Of a DNA stretch of 64,000 bases, positions 4,095 to 55,674 are shown one piece after another; position 1 is the first letter of the stretch; each line of letters opens with the position of its first letter. The notes below the pieces were generated by a model. It saw only the letters and a list, made by a program, of their open reading frames with translations. It ran no database searches and was not told the DNA's origin. The translations under genes and the position numbers were made by a program. Location of the stretch: positions 62,232 through 126,231 of the forward strand of contig JAZKEQ010000001.1 of assembly GCA_040386935.1 (NCBI GenBank), given 5' to 3'. Source of the stretch: Bacteroidota bacterium. GTDB lineage: Bacteria > Bacteroidota > Bacteroidia > NS11-12g > UBA955.

Positions 4095-5843
4095 CTAAAT
4101 TTTTCTTCTTTTAATTGTAAATAAATCTACACTTACAGCATAGTTCAACATAAACGTAATTTCATTGAAAAGCATACTTGATTCATATGGGTTTGTAGTG
4201 GGAGAATCTTTCCTATTTAACAATAAAAAAGACACAGAAAAGCTATGAACCTTCTTTACTGTATATGCCGCTAAAATTCTCAAATTAAACACACCTCCAG
4301 CATGCGCCCCTTTAATGAAGCTACCCGTGTAATTAAAAGCCACTGAAGGCCTTAAACGCTTCTTAAACATTGGCTTACCAAAACAGAGGACCGGTGAAAT
4401 ACTCAACACTTTAATATCATTGATTGTTGATTGATTACCATTCATAGACAATATAAACATCTCCCCACTTTTTTTCCTTTGATAACTATAACCTAAATTA
4501 CCATTATAAAAAGTATTGCTATTAATCAAAACTTCATTTCTCAGATCACTTGAGGTTTGTACTGTTATCATAGCTAAAATACTTGCTGTTGACAAACTAT
4601 CAGAATGTAATATCACATTTATATTACCCATTAAATTCCTTGAAACTTGTCTGAATTTTAAAGTATCAAGCATCATGTAGGGATTATTTTGATTTTGAAA
4701 ATCATTGACCGGACGGGTATTGGTATAGCTCAGAAAATTTGAATAATTAGCTGTGAATGTTATGCCTTTTTTAAGTAAGCAGTTGATGCTTGTATTCGTC
4801 ACAAGTCGCCCCATGGTATTAAGTTTTGTTTTTTGCAAATTATCTCTTTGTTTGCCAATGGTGCTATTGAGATTTACTTTTTGCTTAAAGACTTTAGCAG
4901 AAAATGTTGCAGTTATATTTTCCAAATCACTTGTAAAATAATACGCTCCAAGTGTCTTATAGAATGGATCAATTCGTTCATACCCCAGCTGCAAACCATA
5001 GTTGTTTATTTTATAAGACAATGAAGATTTAAATGCTTTATAAATTCCTGTAGAAGTATTAGCATCAAAAAAACGGGGCATTCTATCATTGACTAATTGA
5101 TTATTCTTATTTTCATTAAAAATTGATACTGATGCTTCACCATTAAACTCTAATTTTTTTTTAAATGTTTTTTGATAGTTCAAACTCCCACAATGATTTT
5201 GCTTAGGCTGGAGAGGATAAGGCATATCCATTACGTTTAATGACCTCACATCATCAGATGCCGTGAATAAAACCATATTAATTGCACCAATAGATTGATC
5301 CTTATATCCAATCTTGCACCCTCCTCCCATTCGCTGAAATGCCGGCAATATATTCTGACTAATGAGTTCAGGGGTATTGGGAATTTTCTTTTGTAAGCGT
5401 CCATAAAAAGCATTAAATGACAACTTCCCCGGTGTCAGTTCAAGTGCACCCCCATTGAACAAATGACCATTAACAGTATAACCTGAATAATTACATGAAA
5501 TAGTACCTGCATGTACTGTTATCCATTTATAGCTAGGGTGAATAGATGTTTGATTATAGGTAGGTTGAGTGAGTTGACTACCCAAATTAGAATATGTAAA
5601 GTTAAAAGGTGCATTGATTACCCCTAATATCTGAAATTGAAGATTTCCTGAAAAAAGATATGAATAAGGTTGCCGAGATGGATTTTTGCCTGTGGCATAA
5701 TTAAAAACCTGATTAATAGAGACACCTCCCGCCCCCTTCAACAAATCACTTTTAAGCATGGCGTCAACATTTTGAGACAATGCTGAAGCAGGACCGATTA
5801 ACACAAAAAATAGTACAAATTTTAGTTTGTAGTTTTTAGTCAT
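4095..5843 (-). CDS. Putative outer-membrane beta-barrel protein (no family recognised)
   Basis: 582-aa ORF. N-terminus MTKNYKLKFVLFFVLIGPASALSQ is signal-like. Y/F/N/G/S/T-rich alternating composition is typical of OM barrels. Its stop lies 5 nt upstream of the ATG of the large gene at 4089, which suggests an operon. Confidence 0.75.
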   Translation of the reverse strand: MTKNYKLKFVLFFVLIGPASALSQNVDAMLKSDLLKGAGGVSINQVFNYATGKNPSRQPYSYLFSGNLQFQILGVINAPFNFTYSNLGSQLTQPTYNQTSIHPSYKWITVHAGTISCNYSGYTVNGHLFNGGALELTPGKLSFNAFYGRLQKKIPNTPELISQNILPAFQRMGGGCKIGYKDQSIGAINMVLFTASDDVRSLNVMDMPYPLQPKQNHCGSLNYQKTFKKKLEFNGEASVSIFNENKNNQLVNDRMPRFFDANTSTGIYKAFKSSLSYKINNYGLQLGYERIDPFYKTLGAYYFTSDLENITATFSAKVFKQKVNLNSTIGKQRDNLQKTKLNTMGRLVTNTSINCLLKKGITFTANYSNFLSYTNTRPVNDFQNQNNPYMMLDTLKFRQVSRNLMGNINVILHSDSLSTASILAMITVQTSSDLRNEVLINSNTFYNGNLGYSYQRKKSGEMFILSMNGNQSTINDIKVLSISPVLCFGKPMFKKRLRPSVAFNYTGSFIKGAHAGGVFNLRILAAYTVKKVHSFSVSFLLLNRKDSPTTNPYESSMLFNEITFMLNYAVSVDLFTIKRRKI

Positions 5844-6213: not shown

Positions 6214-7002
6214 ATGCATACTCCTATTACACAACAGCAAGCCGGGCTGCGCATAAGCGAGCTTAGGAAACTAAAAGGCCTGTCGCAACAGGAACTGGCA
6301 GATAAAATAAATATGTCGCGCCCTTCGCTGGCGCAACTGGAGCTAGGCAACAGGAGCATTGATATTTTTGAACTGGAACAACTGGCCATGGTATTGGGTT
6401 TTTCAATCGATCGTTTTATGTCGGCCGAATTTAGCCCCGAAACTGTACCCAGTGAGAAAACAAAACAAAAAAAACAAAGTGAGCGCATAGCGGTGCCTAC
6501 CCTACAGATAGCCAAACTTAAAAATGTGCTGCTGTACATATTAGAAAAATGTGCGGGCAAACCCAATGTGGGCGAAACTGTGCTGTACAAGTTGCTGTAC
6601 TTTGCCGATTTTAATTACTACGAGCAATATGAGGAACACCTTACTGGTGCCAAATATCGCAAGCTACCCTACGGCCCTGTACCGGCTAAGCTTGATACGA
6701 TAATAGCACAAATGGCTGCTGATGGTGAGCTGCAAAGGGTGAAAACAAAGTACCACGGACATACACAAACCCGCTACCTGCCGCTGCAAAGGGCTAACCT
6801 AATGGAACTAAAAGCCAGCGAGAAGGAAACACTGGACAGGGTGATAGAACAAATGGGTGATTGGTCGGCAACAGCTATTAGTGATTACTCGCATAAGGAC
6901 ATGCCCTGGCTGGCTTCGAAAGAGGGTGAGGATATTAATTACGAATTGGTGTTTTACAGAGACAGTCCTTTTTCAGTAAGAACCTATAGCGACAGTGAAT
7001 AA
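6214..7002 (+). CDS. XRE-family HTH fused to a DUF4065/Panacea-like (SocA-like) antitoxin domain
   Basis: 262 aa. LRISELRKLKGLSQQELADKINMSRPSLAQLELGNR is an XRE-type HTH. GETVLYKLLYFADFNYYEQYEEHLTGAKYRKLPYGPVP ... SDYSHKDMPW fits my memory of the Panacea/DUF4065 pattern (KLLYFAD..G..LTG..Y....GPVP ... SH.E.PW). Confidence 0.8.
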   Translation: MHTPITQQQAGLRISELRKLKGLSQQELADKINMSRPSLAQLELGNRSIDIFELEQLAMVLGFSIDRFMSAEFSPETVPSEKTKQKKQSERIAVPTLQIAKLKNVLLYILEKCAGKPNVGETVLYKLLYFADFNYYEQYEEHLTGAKYRKLPYGPVPAKLDTIIAQMAADGELQRVKTKYHGHTQTRYLPLQRANLMELKASEKETLDRVIEQMGDWSATAISDYSHKDMPWLASKEGEDINYELVFYRDSPFSVRTYSDSE

Positions 7003-7352
7003 TGGCGATGCGCTTTGACTCTTTAGCTGAATACGAAAGGGATTTAAAATCGCTTTTGAAAAAATACAGGACATTGCATGATGACCTGGAGATAGTAAAA
7101 AAGGTACTGAAGATAGCGCCTGATGAAAATCCCCCTCGCAGTTTTAGAATCAATAACCTGGGACTAACTACCTGTATTATAAAAGTAAAAAAGATAGCCT
7201 GCAAAGCGCTAAAAGGCAGTGGCGCAAACTCGGGCCTGCGACTGGTATACGCTTACTTTGAAGTGGAACAAAAAATTGTATTCATTGAACTGTATCACAA
7301 AAACGAAAAAGAGAATGAGGACAGGCAAAGAATACTGAAACACTTTGAGTAA
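7002..7352 (+). CDS. RelE/ParE-superfamily-like toxin (HigB/Gp49-like)
   Basis: 116 aa. Its ATG overlaps the upstream TAA (TAATG). The C-terminus GLRLVYAYFEVEQKIVFIELYHKNEKENED resembles the YR..Y......I.L..IY.K.E.E motif of RelE/ParE-type toxins. Confidence 0.65.
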   Translation: MAMRFDSLAEYERDLKSLLKKYRTLHDDLEIVKKVLKIAPDENPPRSFRINNLGLTTCIIKVKKIACKALKGSGANSGLRLVYAYFEVEQKIVFIELYHKNEKENEDRQRILKHFE

Positions 7353-15922: not shown

Positions 15923-18307
15923 TTATTCAATGATGATTTTTACAGATTCGCCTGTACTGCTCACCACAATATACAATCCGGGTGACCAGGTACTGCAATC
16001 TAAAACAGACTGAGAAAATGCCGCTACATCAGTTTGACCAACCTGCTGACCCGCTACATTGTAAATTGTAATCGACTGTTTATTGCCTATCAGATTATCA
16101 ATTGAGAATTGATGATTCGCAGGATTGGGATACACGGACATAAACATGCTGCGCTTATAAAACACATCATCATCCACCTTACTTACTCTTCGCACTACTG
16201 CATAATTTGTAACAATGGGTTCATTGTAATCGAAATAAATGTAGGCCTTATTGCGAATACTATCGCCTTCTCTTAAGTCGCCCCTCACACCAACATCAAG
16301 CGATATAAATCCTTTGCTTTTTTCTTCATTCACAGATTTAGGCAACAGATTGATATCATCAAACACCCATGTAATGATATTGTTATTTCGCTGAGAGATG
16401 GTACAATTATGACTGGCACCCAGCATTTGAAATTCATAGACAGGCATTTTCATATTGAGTGTATCTACTACTGTTACTCTGCGAGCCACATCATTGCCTT
16501 CGTTTTGAAAATGTATAACATAATTAATACGCTTAATACTGCTTGTAATTTTACCTTCGGGCCAGCAGCGCTTCTCATTAGGATCGCGGCTATAGGCGAG
16601 TACATGGTTAAATTCACAATAATTATCAGTTGTATCTTCATTAACAGTTGGCACAATTGACACATAATGTTTAACAACATCACCAATTTTAAACTTTGTA
16701 AGGGGATAAATTCCTTCAATGACAATTTGCGGTTTATAGCTAAGACTATAGGGGTTAATATTGGTAATGTTAAAAGTTAACACATTACCACTGATGGATG
16801 TATAGGCAGGTGTTGATTTTAAGAAAACAAAATCGCTCTGAAGTGTTACTTTTACTGTTGCTGAACCTGTATTAAAATTACAATCCCGATTGTAAATATT
16901 CACATATAATTTGGCCGTATCCAATATTCTCCAGCTCAATGCACCGAACATTTTTACCTGAAAATTAACATCCTTAAGTGAAGTTCTTTGCAAGGGTATA
17001 AAAACAGTATCGCGTGATATCGATGAATGAAATGCTTTAGAACGCATGGTGCCTGGAAATGGTGTTTTATAACAGGTATCCCCTATCATTTCTCCGGTGA
17101 ATCTAAATCCTATATTCTCATTATCGAGTGGATATTGTATGCCAATACCATTCGCATCAGTTATTTGATTGTAATAATTTTCATAGGTGTAATAACTTTG
17201 AGATGGTTTATCACCGGTATTCCACACGTAATTTTTATTGATATCTCTGAAAACTTTAACCACTACTGTATCTATGGCTACAGGTTTTATTGAATCAACA
17301 TCGAACTCAACAATATTGCCATAATTGACACCTTCCAAAATAACGCCATGGCTTCCGAAATAGTACAACTTTTGATTATTGACTCTTAAAAAGGATACAT
17401 CATTCGTATCCAAATACGTTTCATTTTGAAGGAAAGGATCCCTGGTCATACTGCCACCAAGACCATTGAGCAAAGACAATCGCCCGTTAAAGTCGGTACA
17501 TATCGCAATATTATCGACACCCTGATAAGTGTATCTATAATCTGAAGTAGTGCCACCTACTATTTTTCTGTTTTGAAACACATGAACAGAGTCGCCATCA
17601 ATTGCTGCATATATTTTATTATTAGCAACTGTAAGCGATTTATAAGTACTTGAAGACAAAGGGTTATTAAACTGATAGTAAGTGCTCCAATTATTGGGAG
17701 CAGTATGTGAGACAATTTTATCGTTTATGGCAAAATACAGTGTATCATTCAATATATCGGCAGAAATGGGACCGCGTTGAGTGAGGTATGAAGAGGGAAT
17801 TCCTGCTGTCGTAATACTGGTACCATCAAATACAGCAAAATTAGAAATACTTTGTCCTCCTATGGAATCAAAATCGCCATACAAATACATTTTCCTTTTA
17901 TATACAATAGAACCCAACCTGAACCAATATCCTGTAGTTTGCATTATGGCTGCCGTATCCCATTTTGAACCATTGAAACCCATTAATTGTACTCGTGAAC
18001 CGGATGGCACTGTCATATAAAATTTCTGGTTTAAAAACTGACAGGTCATGCGATTGATTCCCCAATTGTTAATGAAGCCTGATATTGTTGCATAAACGGA
18101 CCACTTCTCTGTTGAGATATTCCATCTATTGACATTTAAATATGTACCATTACTCTCAACTGTTACTGCGTAAACATTGCCCAAGGAATCAGCACAGGCG
18201 CAGTGCACAGTACCATCCAAGCCTTTACCCATGGGTTTAACAACCTGGCCAAACACAGGCAAGGCGGCCATTATACAGATTAACACAATTATTTTTTTCA
18301 TACACAC
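15923..18307 (-). CDS. T9SS type-A-sorted secreted protein (propeller-like N-terminal region, DUF11-like repeat domain), paralog B
   Basis: 794 aa with a signal peptide. DPNEKRCWPEGK...INYVIHFQNEGNDVARRVTVVDTL. C-terminus VYPNPANHQFSI...GLYIVVSS...KIIIE is a Por/T9SS sorting domain. Confidence 0.85.
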   Translation of the reverse strand: MCMKKIIVLICIMAALPVFGQVVKPMGKGLDGTVHCACADSLGNVYAVTVESNGTYLNVNRWNISTEKWSVYATISGFINNWGINRMTCQFLNQKFYMTVPSGSRVQLMGFNGSKWDTAAIMQTTGYWFRLGSIVYKRKMYLYGDFDSIGGQSISNFAVFDGTSITTAGIPSSYLTQRGPISADILNDTLYFAINDKIVSHTAPNNWSTYYQFNNPLSSSTYKSLTVANNKIYAAIDGDSVHVFQNRKIVGGTTSDYRYTYQGVDNIAICTDFNGRLSLLNGLGGSMTRDPFLQNETYLDTNDVSFLRVNNQKLYYFGSHGVILEGVNYGNIVEFDVDSIKPVAIDTVVVKVFRDINKNYVWNTGDKPSQSYYTYENYYNQITDANGIGIQYPLDNENIGFRFTGEMIGDTCYKTPFPGTMRSKAFHSSISRDTVFIPLQRTSLKDVNFQVKMFGALSWRILDTAKLYVNIYNRDCNFNTGSATVKVTLQSDFVFLKSTPAYTSISGNVLTFNITNINPYSLSYKPQIVIEGIYPLTKFKIGDVVKHYVSIVPTVNEDTTDNYCEFNHVLAYSRDPNEKRCWPEGKITSSIKRINYVIHFQNEGNDVARRVTVVDTLNMKMPVYEFQMLGASHNCTISQRNNNIITWVFDDINLLPKSVNEEKSKGFISLDVGVRGDLREGDSIRNKAYIYFDYNEPIVTNYAVVRRVSKVDDDVFYKRSMFMSVYPNPANHQFSIDNLIGNKQSITIYNVAGQQVGQTDVAAFSQSVLDCSTWSPGLYIVVSSTGESVKIIIE

Positions 18308-18315
18308 TTTTAATT

Positions 18316-20691
18316 TTATTCTACCATTAATTTAATGATTTCACCACTGCTGCTCACACCCAAATACAATCCCGGTGCCCATCCTGAGCAATCAACATTT
18401 ATTTGTTGCCCATTTAATATTTTCAAGTTTGATATTATACGACCGTTGATATCGTATAAGAACATTGACTGTTCAGTCGGTCCGTTATTTTCTATCACAA
18501 AATTATCATTAGCCGGATTTGGATAGAGCTTAATAAATACTTGTTTGTTTTGAATAATCAATCCATTTCCGGGATTTTCTTTAATTCTTTCTACTTTTGC
18601 ATAATCAGTAATAACAGGATCGTTGTAATCAAAATAGATACTGGCCCTGTTGCGTATGCTGTCGCCTATTCTCAATTCAGACCTTACACTTGCATCAAAT
18701 GAAATTTGCCCTTTGCTGCCTGCTTCGTCCAAAGCTTTAGGCTTAAGGTTAATATTATCAAATACCCAGGTTACCACATTACCCCTGCATGATACTGTAT
18801 AGTTAGGGTGTGTACTTCCCACCATTTGATAATCGTAAACAGGCATTTTATGATCCATGGTATCAACTATGGTGACTCTTCTGGCATCGTCATTTCCTTC
18901 GTTTTGAAAATCTATATAGAAACGAATTTTTTTAACCTCCGCTGTTACTTTTCCCTGAGGCCAGCTGTTTTTGCAATTGGGATCGTAACTGTATACCAAG
19001 TGCTGTACAATAGAATCTGTATTATCAGTCGTATCATCTGCAAACGTTGAAGTCATTCGTACAGTATGTTTTACTTTACTGCCTACGGTGTACTTCGTAT
19101 TTGGATAGTAGCCGTTTATTTTTATCTTACTCAATTCACCATTACCCTTAATGGTGGCTAAGAAATAGGTAAGCACATTGCCACTAAAAGTTGTGTAAGC
19201 CGGAGAAGTGGATACAAATACAAAATCCTTATCAAGGGCTACTTTTACTGTAGCTGTGGCGTTGGAATTGTCGCAAACATCATTTCTTACTGAAATATCA
19301 AATGCGACTGTATCCAGCAAGCGTGCATTGAATCTCGAAAAGGCCTTAATCGTAATATTCCGGTTGGTGTTTGATGTTCTTTTCAAAGGAAAATAAATCA
19401 ATTCACTGGTCTTCGATGAATTAAAAACCGTTGATGCAACTGCTCCCTGGAATGGCGACATGTAACAACTATCAAAACTAGATTCTTTTATAAAAGTCAA
19501 TTTCATATCCTCATTGTCGAGGGGATAAAACACAAGATTACCTTGCAAATCGGAGTTATAATCCAACCGACCATTTACTCTAATGATACTTTGAGATTGG
19601 GCATCACCGGTATCTAATGTCAAGTTTTTATTGACATCCCTGAAAATCTTTACATTAATGGTATCTTGCCCAGGAACAGGCATTGAATCGAGGTCTAATT
19701 CTACAATATTATTGTAATCATCACCTCCAAACTTAACCCCTTGGCTTCCGTAATAATACAACTTATTATTTACGTCCATCAATGTATAATTCATTGAATC
19801 GGTATAAGTTTCATTTTGCAATAAAGGCGTTTGACTTATGTTTTTTTCGATTTGACTTATTCGCCCTCTGTCACTTAACCTTAGCACCCTTCCCTTATAT
19901 GCATGTACAAAATTATTACTGCCATTAGTTAGGATTACAGAATCTATCATTTTCCTGTTTTTAAATCGATAAAGTATATTCGATGTTGTTGTTGCAATGA
20001 TTGTATCATTTTTTATTGTTAAAGAGTAAAAGACATTGAACTTATTTTTAACACTATCGTGCACACCCCAAATATTGGGATATTTATGAAACAGTATTTT
20101 ATTTTGATAAGTGATGTACAAAGTATCTCTAAGCGTATCCAAATAATTAGGAATAAAGGATGTCAGTTTTTGATAGGAGTTGGGAAAATTTGCATTTACA
20201 ATATTACTACCATTATACACCATCACGTTATTGGCGCCAGCACTAGACAACGAATCGAATTCACCTACAAAATATAACCTGTTTTTAAATGTGCCCACAT
20301 TCATCATACGTACAGAACTATTTCTTTTAAAGAATGTAATTGTATCCCACTTGCTTCCCGTATATTTAAGCAACATGATAGAATTGATGTGGGGTATCGT
20401 CATATAAAAATTTCCAAATAAAATCTGACAGGAAGTTGACCTCACGTAAGAGAGATTACTATACAAGGCCTTTCCATACCTTAGATATACTGCCCATTTT
20501 TTTGTAGATACAGTCCATTTATTGACAATAAAACTATCGGATGGCACTTTGGTAACTGCGTAAATATTGCCAATTGAATCAGTACAGGTGCACAGCACTT
20601 TCCCTTTCAGTCCATCGCCCATGCGTTTTAATCCTTGTGCATGCATTCCAAGTGCTGTAAAAAGCAGTAAGAGTGTAAAAATTTGTCTCAT
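18316..20691 (-). CDS. T9SS type-A-sorted secreted protein, paralog A
   Basis: 791 aa, colinear with the 15923..18307 product. Shared blocks: FQNEGND.ARRVT.VDT, GDSIRN.A.IYFDYN.P, LYPNPAN...GLYLGVSS...KLMVE. Confidence 0.85.
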   Translation of the reverse strand: MRQIFTLLLLFTALGMHAQGLKRMGDGLKGKVLCTCTDSIGNIYAVTKVPSDSFIVNKWTVSTKKWAVYLRYGKALYSNLSYVRSTSCQILFGNFYMTIPHINSIMLLKYTGSKWDTITFFKRNSSVRMMNVGTFKNRLYFVGEFDSLSSAGANNVMVYNGSNIVNANFPNSYQKLTSFIPNYLDTLRDTLYITYQNKILFHKYPNIWGVHDSVKNKFNVFYSLTIKNDTIIATTTSNILYRFKNRKMIDSVILTNGSNNFVHAYKGRVLRLSDRGRISQIEKNISQTPLLQNETYTDSMNYTLMDVNNKLYYYGSQGVKFGGDDYNNIVELDLDSMPVPGQDTINVKIFRDVNKNLTLDTGDAQSQSIIRVNGRLDYNSDLQGNLVFYPLDNEDMKLTFIKESSFDSCYMSPFQGAVASTVFNSSKTSELIYFPLKRTSNTNRNITIKAFSRFNARLLDTVAFDISVRNDVCDNSNATATVKVALDKDFVFVSTSPAYTTFSGNVLTYFLATIKGNGELSKIKINGYYPNTKYTVGSKVKHTVRMTSTFADDTTDNTDSIVQHLVYSYDPNCKNSWPQGKVTAEVKKIRFYIDFQNEGNDDARRVTIVDTMDHKMPVYDYQMVGSTHPNYTVSCRGNVVTWVFDNINLKPKALDEAGSKGQISFDASVRSELRIGDSIRNRASIYFDYNDPVITDYAKVERIKENPGNGLIIQNKQVFIKLYPNPANDNFVIENNGPTEQSMFLYDINGRIISNLKILNGQQINVDCSGWAPGLYLGVSSSGEIIKLMVE

Positions 20692-43870: not shown

Positions 43871-43873
43871 TGA

Positions 43874-43889
43874 TTGACTGTTTAGTCGG
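43874..43889. promoter_or_regulatory. TTGACTGTTTAGTCGG motif copy 3
   Basis: Lies 4 nt after the TetR stop. 21 nt (attgactgtttagtcggtttt) are identical to the reverse complement of 54714-54734. Confidence 0.4.
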
Positions 43890-44287
43890 TTTTAAGAAGA
43901 ACTTTTTTTTGATTTTATTTTTTTTTTTTTTGATTTTAAGATAGTCGTTCTGACAGGATGTTTTTTTTAAATCGTAAAATTCTACAATTGCTAAAATTAA
44001 CCCAACCATTACAGAAGCACGGTCATTCTGACGAATGTCAGAATCTCGCAAAATTGAACGAAAGCGAAACTCTTCATTCATTTTATCGCACAGTAAATAT
44101 TTTTTCTCTTTCCTTTTTACATTGCGAAAAAGTAACAAAAACGATAGCCTCAGGGTACTTTTAGATGGTTTAACGGTATGGAATCCTAACAAAATGTTTT
44201 CATTAAAACGCTATTTCCATTTCAGCAAAAACTAGTCATTATCTTATAACAACAAATTTTAAATCATTTTGAAAAAATGTTGTTATG

Positions 44288-44476
44288 AAAACGAATCTGC
44301 GGGTTGAGTCCACGAAAGGTGTGAAATTTCTCTTGGCCGGCCCGAGTGGAGGTTGGCTGCGCGATAGGCCATTGAAATTTCTCTTTCGTGGTGGGCTTTT
44401 ACTCGCTGTACTCGTGAGAACGCCTACGGCTAAGTTTGCTCCACTTTTTGCCCAAACAAAAAGTGGAAAAAACAAA
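44288..44476 (+). repeat. About 185-nt repeat element, copy A
   Basis: Identical to the reverse complement of 55483-55670 except for one substitution (44305) and a 1-nt A-run indel. Internal features: CCACGAAAG/CTTTCGTGG stem, two GAAATTTCTCT boxes, and an 11-bp hairpin TCCACTTTTTG/CAAAAAGTGGA. Confidence 0.85.
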
Positions 44477-52979: not shown

Positions 52980-53345
52980 CTACCACGCTGCGTCTTTATA
53001 CAAAATTGCTCCACCAGTTTCAGCTTTTTCACAGCTCATTTCATGATCCGTATTCCAATAAACTTTCCAATAGGTGGGCTCATCATCTTTTATCATTACT
53101 ATTTCCATAGTATCGGAATTATTTACCCATTTCCATGTACCATCTCCCCCATAAACACCACCAGCCTTAAAAGTATGCACTATTGAACCACCCTTATTAT
53201 ACCAGGTTTTAGGCGTCAATGTCGTTTTATTCAATGTTTTCGCAGGCGTTACCGGATCATCAGTTTTTGCTTTACAGGCAGAAAAACTCAAGATTAAAAC
53301 CGGCACCAATGCCAGAACCAGATTTTTTAAAATTGATTGATTCAT
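52980..53345 (-). CDS. Small lipoprotein
   Basis: 121 aa with lipobox LSFSAC. 23 nt upstream of the large T9SS-B gene. Confidence 0.65.
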   Translation of the reverse strand: MNQSILKNLVLALVPVLILSFSACKAKTDDPVTPAKTLNKTTLTPKTWYNKGGSIVHTFKAGGVYGGDGTWKWVNNSDTMEIVMIKDDEPTYWKVYWNTDHEMSCEKAETGGAILYKDAAW

Positions 53346-53361
53346 ATTATTTTTTCTTTTT

Positions 53362-53521
53362 TCAAATATATTAATAATTTTTATATAAGCAATTTTATTG
53401 CAGTCGTAGCCAAAGACCTTTCAAAACAATAATTTATATCAAATTCCACAAGACACATAAATACTTTTCTTTAGTTGTTTATATCAAATATATTAATAGT
53501 TCTACTCTTAATATATTAATA
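53362..53521. repeat. AT-only direct repeats: TCAAATATATTAATA x2 plus ATATATTAATA, and TTTATATCAAAT x2
   Basis: 15-mer at 53362-76 and 53484-98. Core again at 53511-21. 12-mer at 53433-44 and 53478-89. Confidence 0.75.
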
Positions 53522-53736
53522 CTGCAATCTTAAAGGGTGTTTTTCACCAACAACAAACTTTACACAATATTTTAAAAATTTATTGACACTCTTTGCATCA
53601 GTCATACAGTAGATACATGGCTATATTATTCCCGATGTTTCGGGATCAACAATTTCGAAAAAAGTGAAACGCTAAGCTATATATATCATAACTATATTGA
53701 CATTTAATCTAAAATGAAAATGCCAAATATTGGATT

Positions 53737-53946
53737 TTGTCGCCACTATATTTCATCTTATCGCCATTGTATAACATCTTGCCGCCAAGGCATTATACCT
53801 TATCGCCATTAGTATTTATCTTGTCGCCATAGTATTTCACCTTATCGCCACGCTTCTATATCTTGTCGCCACTGTTATATACCTTACCGCCATGGGATTA
53901 TATCTTGTCACCACTATATTCTATTTTATCGCTCAAATAGCCGCTT
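53737..53946 (+). repeat. Ten tandem 21-bp direct repeats (9-bp TTRTCGCCA core + 12-bp spacer; alternating TTG/TTA cores give a 42-bp period)
   Basis: Units begin at 53737, 53758, 53779, 53800, 53821, 53842, 53863, 53884, 53905 and 53926. All six frames contain stops. Confidence 0.9.
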
Positions 53947-54217
53947 AATACAGCAAAACAGGCACTATGGCCATATAGGTAGGTCATAAATAAGGCCACC
54001 CCGGCAATACAAGTATCCCAGATATTTTATTCATAGTCTCAATTCGTTGCTAACATGTTGATTCTCCCGAATATTCGGAATGCAATAAACCAATTTAATA
54101 TTCAAATGAACGATAAACATTCTGCTTTTATTGGTGAACTACTTGCTTGCTTAGCAAAAAGCACCAACAATAGAGGAAAAATAATTACATTCGGGGAATA
54201 AGTAGAAAACAACACAA

Positions 54218-54469
54218 ATGAATCAAAAAAAAAATAGAATTAACTATAGGATAAATATGTTATTTCGAGTGATTTACATTTTAGCATTTAATGCATATTC
54301 TTGGTATTGGCTTTATAAAATTATTTGGATTAATGAATCAACTTGGGAAGATTGGGCTAATTGGTTTTTTGTTACTTGTGGTGTTCATTTTTTTGTAATT
54401 GACTACTCAAAATTTTGGTCAAAGAATGTAAAATCAATCTCAGACATATTCAATCCTGATATTCAATAA
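54218..54469 (+). CDS. Hypothetical small 2-TM membrane protein
   Basis: 83 aa, W/F/Y-rich hydrophobic segments. No homolog recognised; weak call. Confidence 0.4.
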   Translation: MNQKKNRINYRINMLFRVIYILAFNAYSWYWLYKIIWINESTWEDWANWFFVTCGVHFFVIDYSKFWSKNVKSISDIFNPDIQ

Positions 54470-54565
54470 CAAAATAATTAACTTTCTGCCTATGTTATTA
54501 AGAGTTTAGGCAATGTACAGTTCAACAATAACCGACAATGGCTAATATCAACTTTAAATCCCCTA

Positions 54566-54706
54566 CCCCCGATAGCAGCGGCAGTGTGTAGCTATGCTGC
54601 CGTGGTGGTGGCCGCAGTAGCGGGGCGACCGGCAGGAAGCCCCCGATAATGCCAGCCAACACAGGCAAGCATACTGCACACTATAGCGGATAGCGGGATA
54701 AGGGCC
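54566..54706. other. GC-rich non-coding patch with TAGCGG-type short repeats
   Basis: cccccgata x2. gatagcagcgg / agtagcgggg / tatagcgga / gatagcggga. Stem CGGCAG-N12-CTGCCG. No ORF in any frame. Confidence 0.4.
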
Positions 54707-54717
54707 AATTAAAAAAA

Positions 54718-54733
54718 CCGACTAAACAGTCAA
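54718..54733. promoter_or_regulatory. CCGACTAAACAGTCAA, which is motif copy 5 in reverse orientation, upstream of the FMN reductase gene
   Basis: 62 nt upstream of the ATG at 54795 and 33 nt upstream of the -7 box. Confidence 0.45.
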
Positions 54734-54765
54734 TTTATTTATCTTTACTTCTGCCTGTATTTCGC

Positions 54766-54773
54766 TACATTTG
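54766..54773 (+). promoter_or_regulatory. -7 box TACATTTG
   Basis: 22 nt upstream of the ATG at 54795. Confidence 0.35.
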
Positions 54774-55482: not shown

Positions 55483-55674
55483 TTGTTTTTCCACTTTTTG
55501 TTTGGGCAAAAAGTGGAGCAAACTTAGCCGTAGGCGTTCTCACGAGTACAGCGAGTAAAAGCCCACCACGAAAGAGAAATTTCAATGGCCTATCGCGCAG
55601 CCAACCTCCACTCGGGCCGGCCAAGAGAAATTTCACACCTTTCGTGGACTCATCCCGCAGATTCGTTTTCAAAA
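55483..55674 (-). repeat. About 185-nt repeat element, copy B (inverted relative to copy A)
   Basis: See copy A at 44288..44476. Confidence 0.85.

What the first reader, a model, noticed from the sequence alone, without database searches (positions are those of the whole stretch)
53737..53946. Phased array of ten 21-bp direct repeats (9-bp TTRTCGCCA core + 12-bp spacer, 42-bp super-period) with no associated gene
The unit cores are ttgtcgcca, ttatcgcca, ttgccgcca, ttatcgcca, ttgtcgcca, ttatcgcca, ttgtcgcca, ttaccgcca, ttgtcacca and ttatcgctc. Each is followed by a 12-nt AT-rich variable spacer, mostly ending in AYC. TTG.. and TTA.. cores alternate strictly, so the real period is 42 bp, repeated five times. 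All six frames hit stops within one or two units, so this is not a heptad-repeat coding region. A 21-bp period equals two helical turns, which places every core on one face of the DNA. That is the geometry of iterons, partition-site arrays or cooperative transcription-factor arrays. A 9-bp repeat plus 12-bp spacer is also the known LytTR response-regulator site geometry. The core matches the relaxed DnaA box TTWTNCACA at only 7/9, with mismatches in the CACA part. The array sits in the longest gene-free stretch of the window (53346-54217) with no rep, par or regulator gene beside it. I cannot match it to a described element.
Basis: partly seen in the sequence, partly recalled or inferred. Interest (0 to 1): 0.8.

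Follow-up and report, generated by a model that had tools for sequence, protein, structure and literature searches.

The report
Orphan phased 21-bp repeat array
A real, non-coding run of ten evenly spaced 21-bp repeats with a conserved 9-12-bp core sits in a strain-variable stretch of a Chitinophagaceae chromosome; it looks like a row of docking sites for an unknown DNA-binding protein, but nothing similar was found elsewhere and no partner gene lies nearby, so it stays a modest curiosity.

Summary
The array is real: ten head-to-tail 21-bp units at 53737-53946, with the cores exactly as listed, every spacer 12 nt, and G/A at core position 3 alternating strictly. The core is far better conserved than the spacer (pairwise identity 0.83 vs 0.47; Fisher p about 5e-5), and spacer indels are compensated so the 21-bp register never slips. 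This points to a constraint on nucleotides and on helical phase. It is not coding: stop counts equal shuffle expectation, and no frame has a usable start covering more than about a third of the array. It is not a replication origin: no DnaA boxes, no skew switch, and the segment is absent from a relative that is 91% identical. It is not a known RNA and is not stably folded. No rep, par, LytTR, transposase or integrase gene was found among the window ORFs scanned. Pattern scans of genome, metagenome and viral collections found no homologous array. The array lies in accessory DNA, 240 bp from a truncated relic of a defence operon (an 83-aa membrane gene whose relatives sit beside TIR and type IIG restriction genes). 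Best reading (about 0.4): a cooperative protein-binding direct-repeat array, five head-to-tail pairs on one DNA face, possibly inherited from a degraded mobile element. Interest is modest.

The parts
53737..53946 (+). The array: ten direct 21-bp units. Each unit is a 9-bp core TTRYCGCCA plus a 12-bp AT-rich spacer ending AYC. The conserved block is effectively AYC-TTRYCGCCA (12 nt). TTG and TTA cores alternate, giving five 42-bp pairs.
53905..53946 (+). Degenerate right-hand end of the array: unit 9 (TTGTCACCA) and unit 10 (TTATCGCTC, with an atypical GC-richer spacer AAATAGCCGCTT).
   Evidence: all core deviations other than the position 3/4 transitions fall in these two units
53346..53736 (.). 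Very AT-rich flank (GC 0.24-0.33) between the lipoprotein gene start and the array. It contains two copies of a promoter-like block with the Bacteroidetes -7 box TATATTTG on the minus strand (53363-53370 and 53485-53492). Context; not shown to belong to the array.
   Evidence: (D2)
53632..53652 (.). Left arm of an imperfect inverted repeat that brackets the array. It contains the hairpin TCCCGAtgttTCGGGA. Tentative; could be chance.
   Evidence: (I5, 71% complementary)
54058..54078 (.). Right arm of the same imperfect inverted repeat. It contains the palindrome CCGAATATTCGG. Tentative.
   Evidence: (I5)
54186..54482 (+). Neighbouring relic, not part of the array. It comprises the 83-aa two-TM gene (54218-54469) plus the last ~10 codons of a lost upstream gene, and is 89% identical at the nucleotide level to L309. 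Homologous modules sit between a type IIG RM or 287-aa gene and a PDC-S66/ThsB-like TIR gene.

Best explanation
The array is a cis-acting DNA element: a row of ten co-oriented binding sites for a sequence-specific DNA-binding protein.

Shown: a ~12-bp conserved block (AYC-TTRYCGCCA) recurs every 21.0 bp, which is two helical turns. The variable 9-bp stretches between blocks drift freely in sequence but not in length.

Inferred: all sites lie on one face of the helix, so bound protomers can touch each other and bind cooperatively. The strict TTG/TTA alternation, which persists although the spacers have lost any 42-bp signal, suggests the working unit is a head-to-tail pair of slightly different half-sites. 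That would mean five dimers forming a short nucleoprotein filament or wrap.

This is how iterons, type II/III plasmid centromeres and tandem response-regulator or BldC-type operators work. Because the array sits in strain-variable accessory DNA beside a truncated defence-operon fragment, and no cognate gene is nearby, it may be a relic carried in with a now-degraded mobile element (an iteron, centromere or operator array whose core conservation reflects past selection). Alternatively it is a distal operator for a regulator encoded elsewhere in the genome. The binding protein, the output and whether the array is still active are not known.
For: Core vs spacer: mismatches to the column consensus are 10/90 in the core against 43/120 in the spacer (Fisher p = 4.6e-5). 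For the 12-nt block against the 9 variable positions the counts are 16/120 vs 37/90 (p = 5.7e-6). Pairwise identity is 0.83 vs 0.47.

The GC-rich core survives in a genome of about 38% GC while the AT-rich spacers diverge.

Phase: nine of nine core-to-core distances are exactly 21 bp. Yet spacer alignments need indels (TRF reports 3-10% indels; for example units 4 and 5 carry TAGTATTT offset by 1 nt). Length is therefore conserved where sequence is not.

Alternation of G/A has P = 0.008, with no parity signal in the spacers.

Variation inside the core is almost all transitions, and the only other deviations are in the two end units.

Not coding: stops equal shuffle expectation, there are no covering start codons, and six-frame Pfam is empty. 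Codon third positions of the core are invariant in every frame.

Not a structured RNA: fold z-scores are +1.15 and +0.83, and there is no Rfam match in the array.

Precedent: Rep proteins bind iterons cooperatively, and shifting a site by half a turn abolishes cooperativity (PMC4980987). BldC and some response regulators oligomerise head-to-tail on variable numbers of direct repeats (PMC5859096). LytTR sites are 9-bp repeats 12 bp apart (PMC6193735).
Against: No binding protein is identified. No rep, par, LytTR, AraC, transposase or integrase gene was found among the window ORFs scanned; two ORFs of >=100 aa at 37-42 kb were not scanned.

No homologous array was found in 185k species genomes, JGI metagenomes or IMG/VR with strict core patterns. 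There is therefore no phylogenetic evidence of conservation.

The nearest relative (91% nt identity in the FMN reductase gene) has unrelated DNA upstream of window position 54682. Homologues of both flanking genes lack any such array.

No Bacteroidetes-type promoter box lies within or next to the array, so a regulatory output is not evident.

The core window was chosen after looking at the data, which weakens the p-values by perhaps 100-fold.
Confidence: 0.4

Rival explanations
1. Functionless minisatellite. A 21/42-bp tandem duplication arose by slippage in junk accessory DNA and is simply decaying. The apparent core would then be a by-product of uneven mutation or of short-tract conversion, not of binding.
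For: The array lies in strain-variable DNA next to a truncated operon relic. It has no homologues and no partner gene. The end units are more degenerate than the inner ones, as in ordinary tandem arrays. Relatives' intergenic regions carry other unrelated tandem repeats. The Logan assembly graph breaks at the array's edge.
Against: Uniform decay is rejected: core vs spacer p is about 5e-5 to 6e-6. An AT-biased genome should erode the GC-rich core first, but the opposite is seen. No two units are near-identical in the spacer (best is 9/12), so the array is old, yet eight consecutive cores fit TTRYCGCCA. The exact 21-bp register persists despite spacer indels.
Confidence: 0.2
2. LytTR-type (or AraC/OmpR-type) operator array. 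Five tandem pairs of 9-bp repeats with 12-bp spacers would be bound by a response-regulator dimer encoded elsewhere, controlling the divergent lipoprotein/T9SS-adhesin operon or the small downstream genes. This is a special case of the best explanation.
For: The geometry is exactly the 9 bp + 12 bp of described LytTR sites, where left and right repeats also differ slightly (PMC6193735 Tables 2-3). That matches the TTG/TTA alternation. From general knowledge, Bacteroidota genomes encode many LytTR regulators.
Against: Described sites are one pair placed 4-11 bp upstream of the -35 element. Here there are ten units, and the nearest Bacteroidetes -7 boxes are about 245 and 367 bp away on the minus strand, with none downstream on the + strand before 54766. 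The core bears no resemblance to the listed ACCNCTTAN-type repeats. No LytTR domain was found among the window ORFs scanned. Homologous operons elsewhere lack the array.
Confidence: 0.08
3. RNA-level element. The array is transcribed and acts as RNA: a protein sponge with ten repeated motifs, a type III antitoxin-like repeat RNA, or (on the + strand) a C-rich, G-poor, unstructured Rho-loading tract ahead of the 83-aa gene.
For: The + strand is pyrimidine-rich and G-poor (T 80, C 57, A 47, G 26 of 210) and is no more folded than shuffles. A sigma-70-like TTGACA-16-TACAGT lies upstream at 53583-53610. A 42-nt super-unit repeated 5 times resembles the size of ToxI-type repeats (general knowledge).
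Against: No Bacteroidetes-type promoter lies upstream on either strand. There is no Rfam match. No ToxN/AbiE-type toxin gene follows. Homologues of the 83-aa gene never have such an array upstream. Type III antitoxin repeats are near-identical, whereas these are only about 60-65% identical.
Confidence: 0.08
4. Decayed coding repeat: the remnant of a gene for a heptad-repeat protein. Candidate readings are + frame 3 (V/I)A(T/I)xx(Y/H)L, + frame 1 LSPxxxI, or - frame xYxGDK(I/V).
For: The + frames carry only 1-2 stops across 70 codons. G/A and T/C variants are synonymous or conservative in some frames. Many unrelated genomes carry coding heptad repeats with the same TTRTCGCCA string, read as GDK/GDN on the opposite strand.
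Against: Stop counts in all six frames equal the expectation from shuffled spacers. The open stretches have no start codon apart from short TTG/ATG ORFs of 32 aa or fewer. Third-codon positions of the core are invariant while first and second positions vary, the reverse of coding constraint. Six-frame Pfam is empty. A pseudogene would decay uniformly.
Confidence: 0.05
5. Chromosomal replication origin (a DnaA-box-like cluster), or an active iteron origin or centromere of a resident replicon.
For: The two-turn phasing of co-oriented repeats next to a very AT-rich stretch (GC 0.24-0.29 at 53300-53700) resembles an iteron+DUE layout (PMC4980987). The TTATCGCCA cores match the DnaA box TTATCCACA at 7/9 (6/9 for TTGTCGCCA).
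Against: No DnaA box with <=1 mismatch lies within 1.4 kb, and window-wide counts are below shuffle expectation. GC skew is negative on both sides, with no switch. The segment is not conserved in a relative with 91% nt identity. No rep, par or dnaA gene was found among the ORFs scanned, and the neighbours are ordinary chromosomal genes such as ruvA, queA, rsmG and tRNAs.
Confidence: 0.03

Closest known systems
Plasmid/phage iterons (P1 incC/incA, F ori2, R6K gamma, RK2 oriV, pPS10)
   Same: Co-oriented direct repeats of 17-22 bp, each with a conserved sub-motif. Spacing matters for cooperativity: Rep binding is cooperative and is lost when two iterons are moved half a helical turn apart. An AT-rich region lies adjacent. 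(PMC4980987.)
   Different: Iterons lie next to their rep gene, with DnaA boxes, on a plasmid, phage or other mobile element. Here there is no rep gene, no DnaA box and a chromosomal setting. The origin arrays listed in that review have 2-7 iterons, not ten.
Centromeres of type II/III partition systems (R1 parC, pSK41 parC, pBtoxis tubC)
   Same: Tandem phased direct repeats on which a small DNA-binding protein polymerises into a helical or wrapped segrosome (general knowledge).
   Different: Those arrays sit immediately upstream of parMR or tubRZ, and their units are near-identical. No partition gene is present here, and the spacers are only about 47% identical.
LytTR response-regulator operators (AgrA, HdrR/BrsR, ComE, PlnC)
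   Same: A 9-bp direct repeat plus a 12-bp spacer, giving a 21-bp period. The two repeats of a pair are often slightly different. (PMC6193735.)
   Different: Those are one pair per promoter, 4-11 bp upstream of the -35 element, usually autoregulating an adjacent regulator gene. Here there are five pairs, no adjacent promoter or regulator, and an unrelated core sequence.
BldC-type and multi-repeat response-regulator operators
   Same: Head-to-tail oligomerisation on a variable number of direct repeats, with DNA distortion (PMC5859096).
   Different: The BldC repeat unit is about 9 bp (AATTxxxxC) with 2-4 copies, not 21 bp with ten copies. No BldC-like gene was identified here.
Coding heptad (21-nt) repeats containing TTRTCGCCA (= GGCGAYAA, Gly-Asp-Lys/Asn on the other strand)
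   Same: The same 9-mer at the same 21-nt period, found in many genomes by the pattern scans.
   Different: In those arrays the whole unit is conserved and the frame is open. Here only the core is conserved, and the matching minus frame has 3 stops.

Membership tests
Iteron-type replication origin | Array of co-oriented 17-22-bp repeats at roughly two-turn spacing | tested here: met
   Ten units at exactly 21 bp
Iteron-type replication origin | Cognate rep gene adjacent, and a plasmid, phage or mobile-element context | tested here: not met
   Pfam scans of the window ORFs checked found no Rep, Par, integrase or transposase domain. Six-frame Pfam of 53346-54217 is empty. No plasmid or phage BLAST hit.
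Iteron-type replication origin | DnaA boxes and an AT-rich unwinding element beside the repeats | tested here: inconclusive
   An AT-rich flank is present (GC 0.24-0.29), but there is no DnaA box with <=1 mismatch between 52287 and 59812.
Chromosomal oriC | Cluster of DnaA boxes (TTATNCACA), usually in both orientations | tested here: not met
   Cores match at 6-7 of 9 only and are all in one orientation. No box with <=1 mismatch lies nearby.
Chromosomal oriC | GC-skew switch, and conservation among relatives | tested here: not met
   Skew stays negative on both sides. A relative with 91% nt identity has unrelated DNA upstream of 54682. A whole-genome skew was not available.
LytTR operator | Pair of 9-bp direct repeats separated by 12 (11-13) bp | tested here: met
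   The geometry is exact for all nine intervals (definition from PMC6193735).
LytTR operator | Located a few bp upstream of the -35 of the regulated promoter | tested here: not met
   No TAnnTTTG box lies in or next to the array; the nearest are minus-strand boxes at 53492 and 53370 and a plus-strand box at 54766.
LytTR operator | LytTR regulator gene in the locus, and repeat sequence resembling known LytTR sites | tested here: not met
   No LytTR domain was found among the window ORFs scanned. The core TTRYCGCCA is unlike the ACCNCTTAN-type repeats. The rest of the genome could not be searched.
Type II/III partition centromere | Repeat array immediately upstream of parMR, tubRZ or a similar operon | tested here: not met
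   No actin-like, tubulin-like or ParA-type ATPase, and no RHH gene, lies nearby.
Type III toxin-antitoxin (ToxIN-like) repeat RNA | Near-identical 34-45-nt tandem repeats, then a terminator and an endoribonuclease toxin gene | tested here: not met
   The units are only about 60-65% identical overall. No toxin gene follows and PADLOC finds nothing for the neighbours. No terminator lies after the array.
CRISPR / TIGR-type guide arrays | Conserved repeats with unrelated spacers, next to cas or tas genes | tested here: not met
   The spacers are related to each other (47% identity, shared TAT/AYC positions). The repeat is 9-12 nt. No cas/tas-like gene was found among the ORFs scanned.
Protein-coding heptad repeat | Open frame with a start codon, fewer stops than chance, and third-position variability | tested here: not met
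   Stops equal shuffle expectation in all six frames. No start codon covers the array. Third positions of the core are invariant.
Plain VNTR / minisatellite | Copy number varies among near-identical strains, and units decay uniformly | tested here: inconclusive
   Uniform decay is rejected. No near-identical second strain was available; the only other assembly is 100% identical.
MITE / BOX-like mosaic repeat | Multiple dispersed copies with terminal inverted repeats | tested here: inconclusive
   A weak inverted repeat (71%) brackets the array (I5), but no second copy of the flanks exists in the 64-kb window. The rest of the genome was not available.
Known RNA family (Rfam) | Covariance-model match | tested here: not met
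   No hit in the array at E <= 1. Folding energy is not below that of shuffles.

The most novel reading that the evidence does not exclude
The array is the still-active cis site of an undescribed system. An unknown protein, encoded elsewhere in this Chitinophagaceae genome or on a partner element, would polymerise as five head-to-tail dimers on one face of 210 bp of DNA. The role could be a chromosomal centromere- or iteron-like anchor for an accessory island, or a scaffold that regulates or senses for the adjacent defence-island remnant. That would be a new protein/site pair with no sequence relatives in current collections.
Probability: 0.1. Interest if true: 0.6.

Novelty: new member of a known kind. 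Interest (0 to 1): 0.3.

Why it matters
If a protein does bind this array, it would give a clean natural example of helical-phase-locked, head-to-tail cooperative binding in Bacteroidota. DNA-binding specificities, plasmid origins and centromeres are poorly charted in this phylum. It would also provide a 12-bp motif with which to find the protein's other targets. If the array is a relic, it shows that accessory 'graveyard' segments can preserve the binding-site architecture of lost mobile elements. As things stand it is a single orphan locus in one metagenome-derived genome with no partner gene, so its practical value is limited until a binding protein or a second occurrence is found.

Tried and rejected
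1. Loose core scans of genome contigs gave over 100 hits. Almost all were chance matches in GC-rich genomes or coding GDK/GDN heptad repeats, so they were uninformative.

2. Strict 3-unit scans of genome contigs and metagenome contigs, and 2- and 4-unit scans of viral contigs, found no homologous array.
   - L275 is a ~46-unit minisatellite with unit TTATCGCCACACTTCTGTTCC. It shares the 12-nt core, but the resemblance is within chance (8 of 11 unforced positions, over ~300 comparisons) and its flanks are uninformative.
   - L256 is a palindromic GCGACAAGTCGC array of a different kind.

3. Synteny through the 121-aa lipoprotein: the best homologues are only 50-64% identical and none has the array.

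4. Synteny through the FMN reductase: the 99%-identical protein (91% nt identity, L247) has unrelated upstream DNA, and Ferruginibacter lapsinanis has no array.

5. Synteny through the 83-aa gene: close homologues exist (up to 88%), but homology is confined to 54186-54482 and no array occurs upstream.

6. BLAST of 53346-54700 against plasmids and phages gave only spurious AT-rich Borrelia hits or nothing.

7. A literature search for the 9-mers returned only primer sequences.

8. NCBIfam, PHROGs and PADLOC searches on the small ORFs in and around the array found nothing meaningful. Six-frame Pfam of the whole intergenic region was empty.

9. tblastn of the neighbours' partner proteins (TIR, MmeI-type RM, 287-aa, Y1 transposase) against the window found only the last 10 codons of the 287-aa gene, at 54186-54215.

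10. RNA folding of both strands gave no signal.

11. I considered and dropped Fur, PhoB, Spo0A, sigma-54 and ECF promoter resemblances, Chi-site arrays (outside copies show no orientation bias), Tn7/Mu end arrays (no transposase and no inverted partner) and heptamer STRR-type repeats (no 7-bp substructure).
Full report
OBSERVATION. It consists of ten head-to-tail 21-bp units. Each has a 9-bp core: TTGTCGCCA, TTATCGCCA, TTGCCGCCA, TTATCGCCA, TTGTCGCCA, TTATCGCCA, TTGTCGCCA, TTACCGCCA, TTGTCACCA, TTATCGCTC. Each core is followed by a 12-bp AT-rich spacer that mostly ends in AYC. TRF finds the array with periods 21, 42, 63 and 84, and the repeat finder places seven 84-nt copies in exact 21-bp register. 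The degenerate core TTRYCGCCA occurs 15 times in 64 kb, against 2.0 +/- 1.5 in dinucleotide shuffles. Eight of these are in the array at exact 21-bp spacing. A second assembly of run SRR26324619 (Logan contigs L127 and L128) is 100% identical through the array, so the sequence is not one assembler's artefact. The Logan graph does break at the left edge of the array.

- The claim that all six frames hit stops within one or two units is wrong for the + strand. Frames +2 and +3 each have one stop in the array. Frame +1 has one internal stop (TAG in unit 5) plus the TAA in unit 10. Frame +3 reads an unbroken hydrophobic heptad for about eight units.
- This does not rescue a coding reading. Stop counts in all six frames equal what shuffled spacers give. 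The open stretches lack start codons, and the only ORFs are 32 aa or shorter. The codon third positions of the core are invariant while first and second positions vary. A six-frame Pfam scan of 53346-54217 is empty.
- The array is not entirely without a neighbouring gene (see CONTEXT).

INTERNAL ANATOMY.
- Per-column analysis shows that the conserved block is really about 12 nt: positions 19-21 (AYC) plus 1-9 (TTRYCGCCA). About nine variable positions lie between blocks.
- Mismatches to the column consensus are 10/90 in the core against 43/120 in the spacer (Fisher p = 4.6e-5). For the 12-nt block against the variable nine they are 16/120 vs 37/90 (p = 5.7e-6). Mean pairwise identity is 0.83 vs 0.47. 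After allowing roughly 100-fold for choosing the window post hoc, this remains significant.
- The conserved part is the GC-rich part, in a genome of about 38% GC. That is the opposite of what mutation pressure alone would leave.
- All nine core-to-core distances are exactly 21 bp, although spacers can only be aligned with indels (TRF reports 3-10% indels; units 4 and 5 carry the same TAGTATTT block offset by one base). Length is kept where sequence is not.
- G and A alternate strictly at core position 3 (P = 0.008), with a partial partner at position 20 (ATC before TTG, ACC before TTA). The spacers show no same-parity similarity (0.463 vs 0.477). The 42-bp super-period is therefore not just a fossil of a 42-bp duplication. 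It looks like a maintained pair of non-identical half-sites.
- Core variation is almost all transitions. The only other deviations are in the two right-hand end units.

WHAT IT IS NOT.
- Not a known RNA. There is no Rfam match in the array at E <= 1, and neither strand folds better than shuffles (z = +1.15 and +0.83).
- Not a replication origin on the available evidence. No DnaA box with <=1 mismatch occurs between 52287 and 59812, and the window-wide count is below shuffle expectation. GC skew stays negative on both sides. The segment is not conserved in a close relative.
- Not next to a promoter of the Bacteroidetes type. TAnnTTTG boxes lie at 53370 and 53492 on the minus strand (serving the lipoprotein/adhesin operon) and at 54766 on the plus strand (FMN reductase). 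None lies in or beside the array.
- Not part of a recognisable mobile element. Pfam scans of the window's large ORFs show ordinary chromosomal genes: ruvA, queA, rsmG, fabF, RNase III, tRNAs, T9SS cargo proteins, and ECF sigma, TetR and Crp-like regulators. No Rep, Par, LytTR, integrase or transposase domain was found; two ORFs of >=100 aa at 37-42 kb were not scanned. BLAST against plasmid and phage collections found nothing relevant.

CONTEXT.
- The host is a Chitinophagaceae bacterium. Its FMN reductase is 83% identical to that of Ferruginibacter lapsinanis.
- To the left, on the minus strand, lie a 121-aa lipoprotein gene (52980-53345) and a 1198-aa PKD/CHU_C T9SS protein.
- To the right, 272 bp downstream on the plus strand, lies an 83-aa two-TM ORF (54218-54469). 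It is a real, conserved gene with 34 homologues at up to 88% identity.
- In other genomes this small gene is embedded in defence-type operons. It follows a type IIG restriction-modification gene or a 287-aa membrane protein, often with overlapping stop and start codons. It precedes a PDC-S66/ThsB-like TIR protein.
- Nucleotide homology to those loci covers only window 54186-54482 (89% identity). That span is the small gene plus the last ten codons of the lost upstream gene. The window therefore holds a truncated relic of such an operon.
- The nearest relative found (L247, 91% nt identity in the FMN reductase gene) has unrelated DNA upstream of window position 54682. The array thus lies in strain-variable accessory DNA.

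COMPARATIVE SEARCH FOR THE ARRAY.
- Loose core patterns returned mostly chance hits and coding heptad repeats, in which TTRTCGCCA is read as Gly-Asp-Lys/Asn on the other strand.
- Strict patterns requiring two to four phased cores, with or without the preceding C, were run against 185k species genomes, JGI metagenomes and IMG/VR. They found only such coding repeats, a palindromic REP-like array (L256) and one long minisatellite of unknown, possibly eukaryotic, origin (L275).
- L275's resemblance to unit 6 of the window array is within chance.
- Homologues of the lipoprotein gene (best 63-64% identity) have no such array upstream.
- No second occurrence is known, so conservation across species could not be tested.

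INTERPRETATION.
- The internal evidence points to a constraint at the DNA level on a 12-bp motif and on helical phase. The signs are core much better conserved than spacer, the GC-rich core retained, exact two-turn register despite spacer indels, and maintained alternation.
- The best-supported mechanism is a row of co-oriented binding sites on one face of the helix, occupied cooperatively and probably as five head-to-tail dimers.
- This is how iterons work: Rep binding is cooperative and is lost when sites are moved half a turn (PMC4980987). It is also how plasmid centromeres of the ParR/TubR type work (general knowledge), and how BldC and some response regulators bind variable numbers of direct repeats (PMC5859096).
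- The 9+12 geometry is that of LytTR operators (PMC6193735). Those, however, are single pairs abutting a promoter and usually autoregulate an adjacent regulator gene. None of that holds here.
- The array sits in accessory DNA beside an operon relic, with no cognate gene. A fair share of this probability therefore goes to a relic: an iteron, centromere or operator array brought in with a mobile element that has since decayed, whose conservation pattern records past rather than present selection.
- I put about 0.4 on 'protein-binding direct-repeat array, active or relic'. The LytTR-specific version is listed separately at about 0.08.
- The remaining rivals are: functionless minisatellite about 0.2, RNA-level roles about 0.08, decayed coding repeat about 0.05, and origin about 0.03. 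The remainder is unassigned.

SHOWN VERSUS INFERRED.
- Shown: the array, its statistics, its non-coding status, the absence of origin and promoter signatures, the accessory context, and the absence of homologues in the collections searched.
- Inferred: that a protein binds it, the dimer-pair model, and the relic scenario.

VERDICT. This is a real and neatly organised orphan repeat array of a known general kind (a phased direct-repeat binding array). It has no identifiable family membership, partner gene or homologue, so interest is modest.

Noticed in passing
window 54186-54482: The 83-aa two-TM gene (54218-54469) plus the last ~10 codons of a missing upstream gene is 89% identical at the nucleotide level to L309. 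In other genomes this small gene sits between a type IIG RM or 287-aa membrane gene and a PDC-S66/ThsB-like TIR gene. The small TM protein may be an unrecognised component of that TIR defence module. Here it is a truncated relic without either partner.
   Followed up: partly
window 54561-54704 (+): Flavo-1-like RNA match at 38.5 bits (gathering score 42, E = 1.8e-5). It spans the full model but carries a large insertion (144 nt against a 76-nt model), in a locally GC-rich patch (GC 0.54).
   Followed up: no
window 55487-55540 (+) and 44420-44475 (-); also the end of L247: A ~55-nt hairpin-containing element (TTTTTCCACTTTTTGTTTGGGCAAAAAGTGGAGCAAACTTAGCCGTAGGCG) occurs twice in the window in opposite orientations, downstream of genes, and again in a related genome. 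It looks like a dispersed REP- or terminator-like repeat.
   Followed up: partly
window 54714-54734 and 43873-43893: An exact 21-nt inverted copy (AAACCGACTAAACAGTCAAT) lies just upstream of the FMN reductase promoter box and near the end of the TetR-family gene. It could be a shared operator or a small dispersed repeat.
   Followed up: no
window 53357-53379 and 53479-53501: A duplicated 23-nt block, each copy carrying a Bacteroidetes -7 box (TATATTTG, minus strand, at 53370 and 53492). This gives two candidate promoters for the lipoprotein/T9SS-adhesin operon.
   Followed up: partly
window 6214-7352 (+): An HTH_3 + SocA/Panacea-domain gene (262 aa) is followed, with overlapping stop and start, by a 116-aa ORF with no Pfam match. 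This is a candidate Panacea-type toxin-antitoxin pair.
   Followed up: no
L275 (Ga0268261_10098781) 950-1930: About 46 tandem units of TTATCGCCACACTTCTGTTCC, with occasional 20- or 22-nt units, share the window array's 12-nt core. They lie beside a second 20/21-nt array (CACTTCACCTCACATCACCA). The origin is unknown and possibly eukaryotic; the similarity to the window array is within chance.
   Followed up: partly
L256 (Blastocatellaceae MAG) 4290-4620: An intergenic array of GCGACAAGTCGC-type palindromes in both orientations at ~21-bp spacing, between an acyl-CoA-synthetase-like gene and the next gene. It is a REP/BIME-like element that happens to contain CTTGTCGCCA.
   Followed up: no
window 53632-53652 and 54058-54078: An imperfect inverted repeat (71% over 21 nt) brackets the array. 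Each arm contains its own small palindrome or hairpin (TCCCGAtgttTCGGGA; CCGAATATTCGG). This could mark the ends of a MITE-like unit or be chance; no other copy exists in the window.
   Followed up: partly
window 15923-20691 (-): Two tandem paralogous ~790-aa T9SS cargo genes (DUF7619 + Por_Secre_tail). The window carries at least five T9SS-sorted proteins in all.
   Followed up: no
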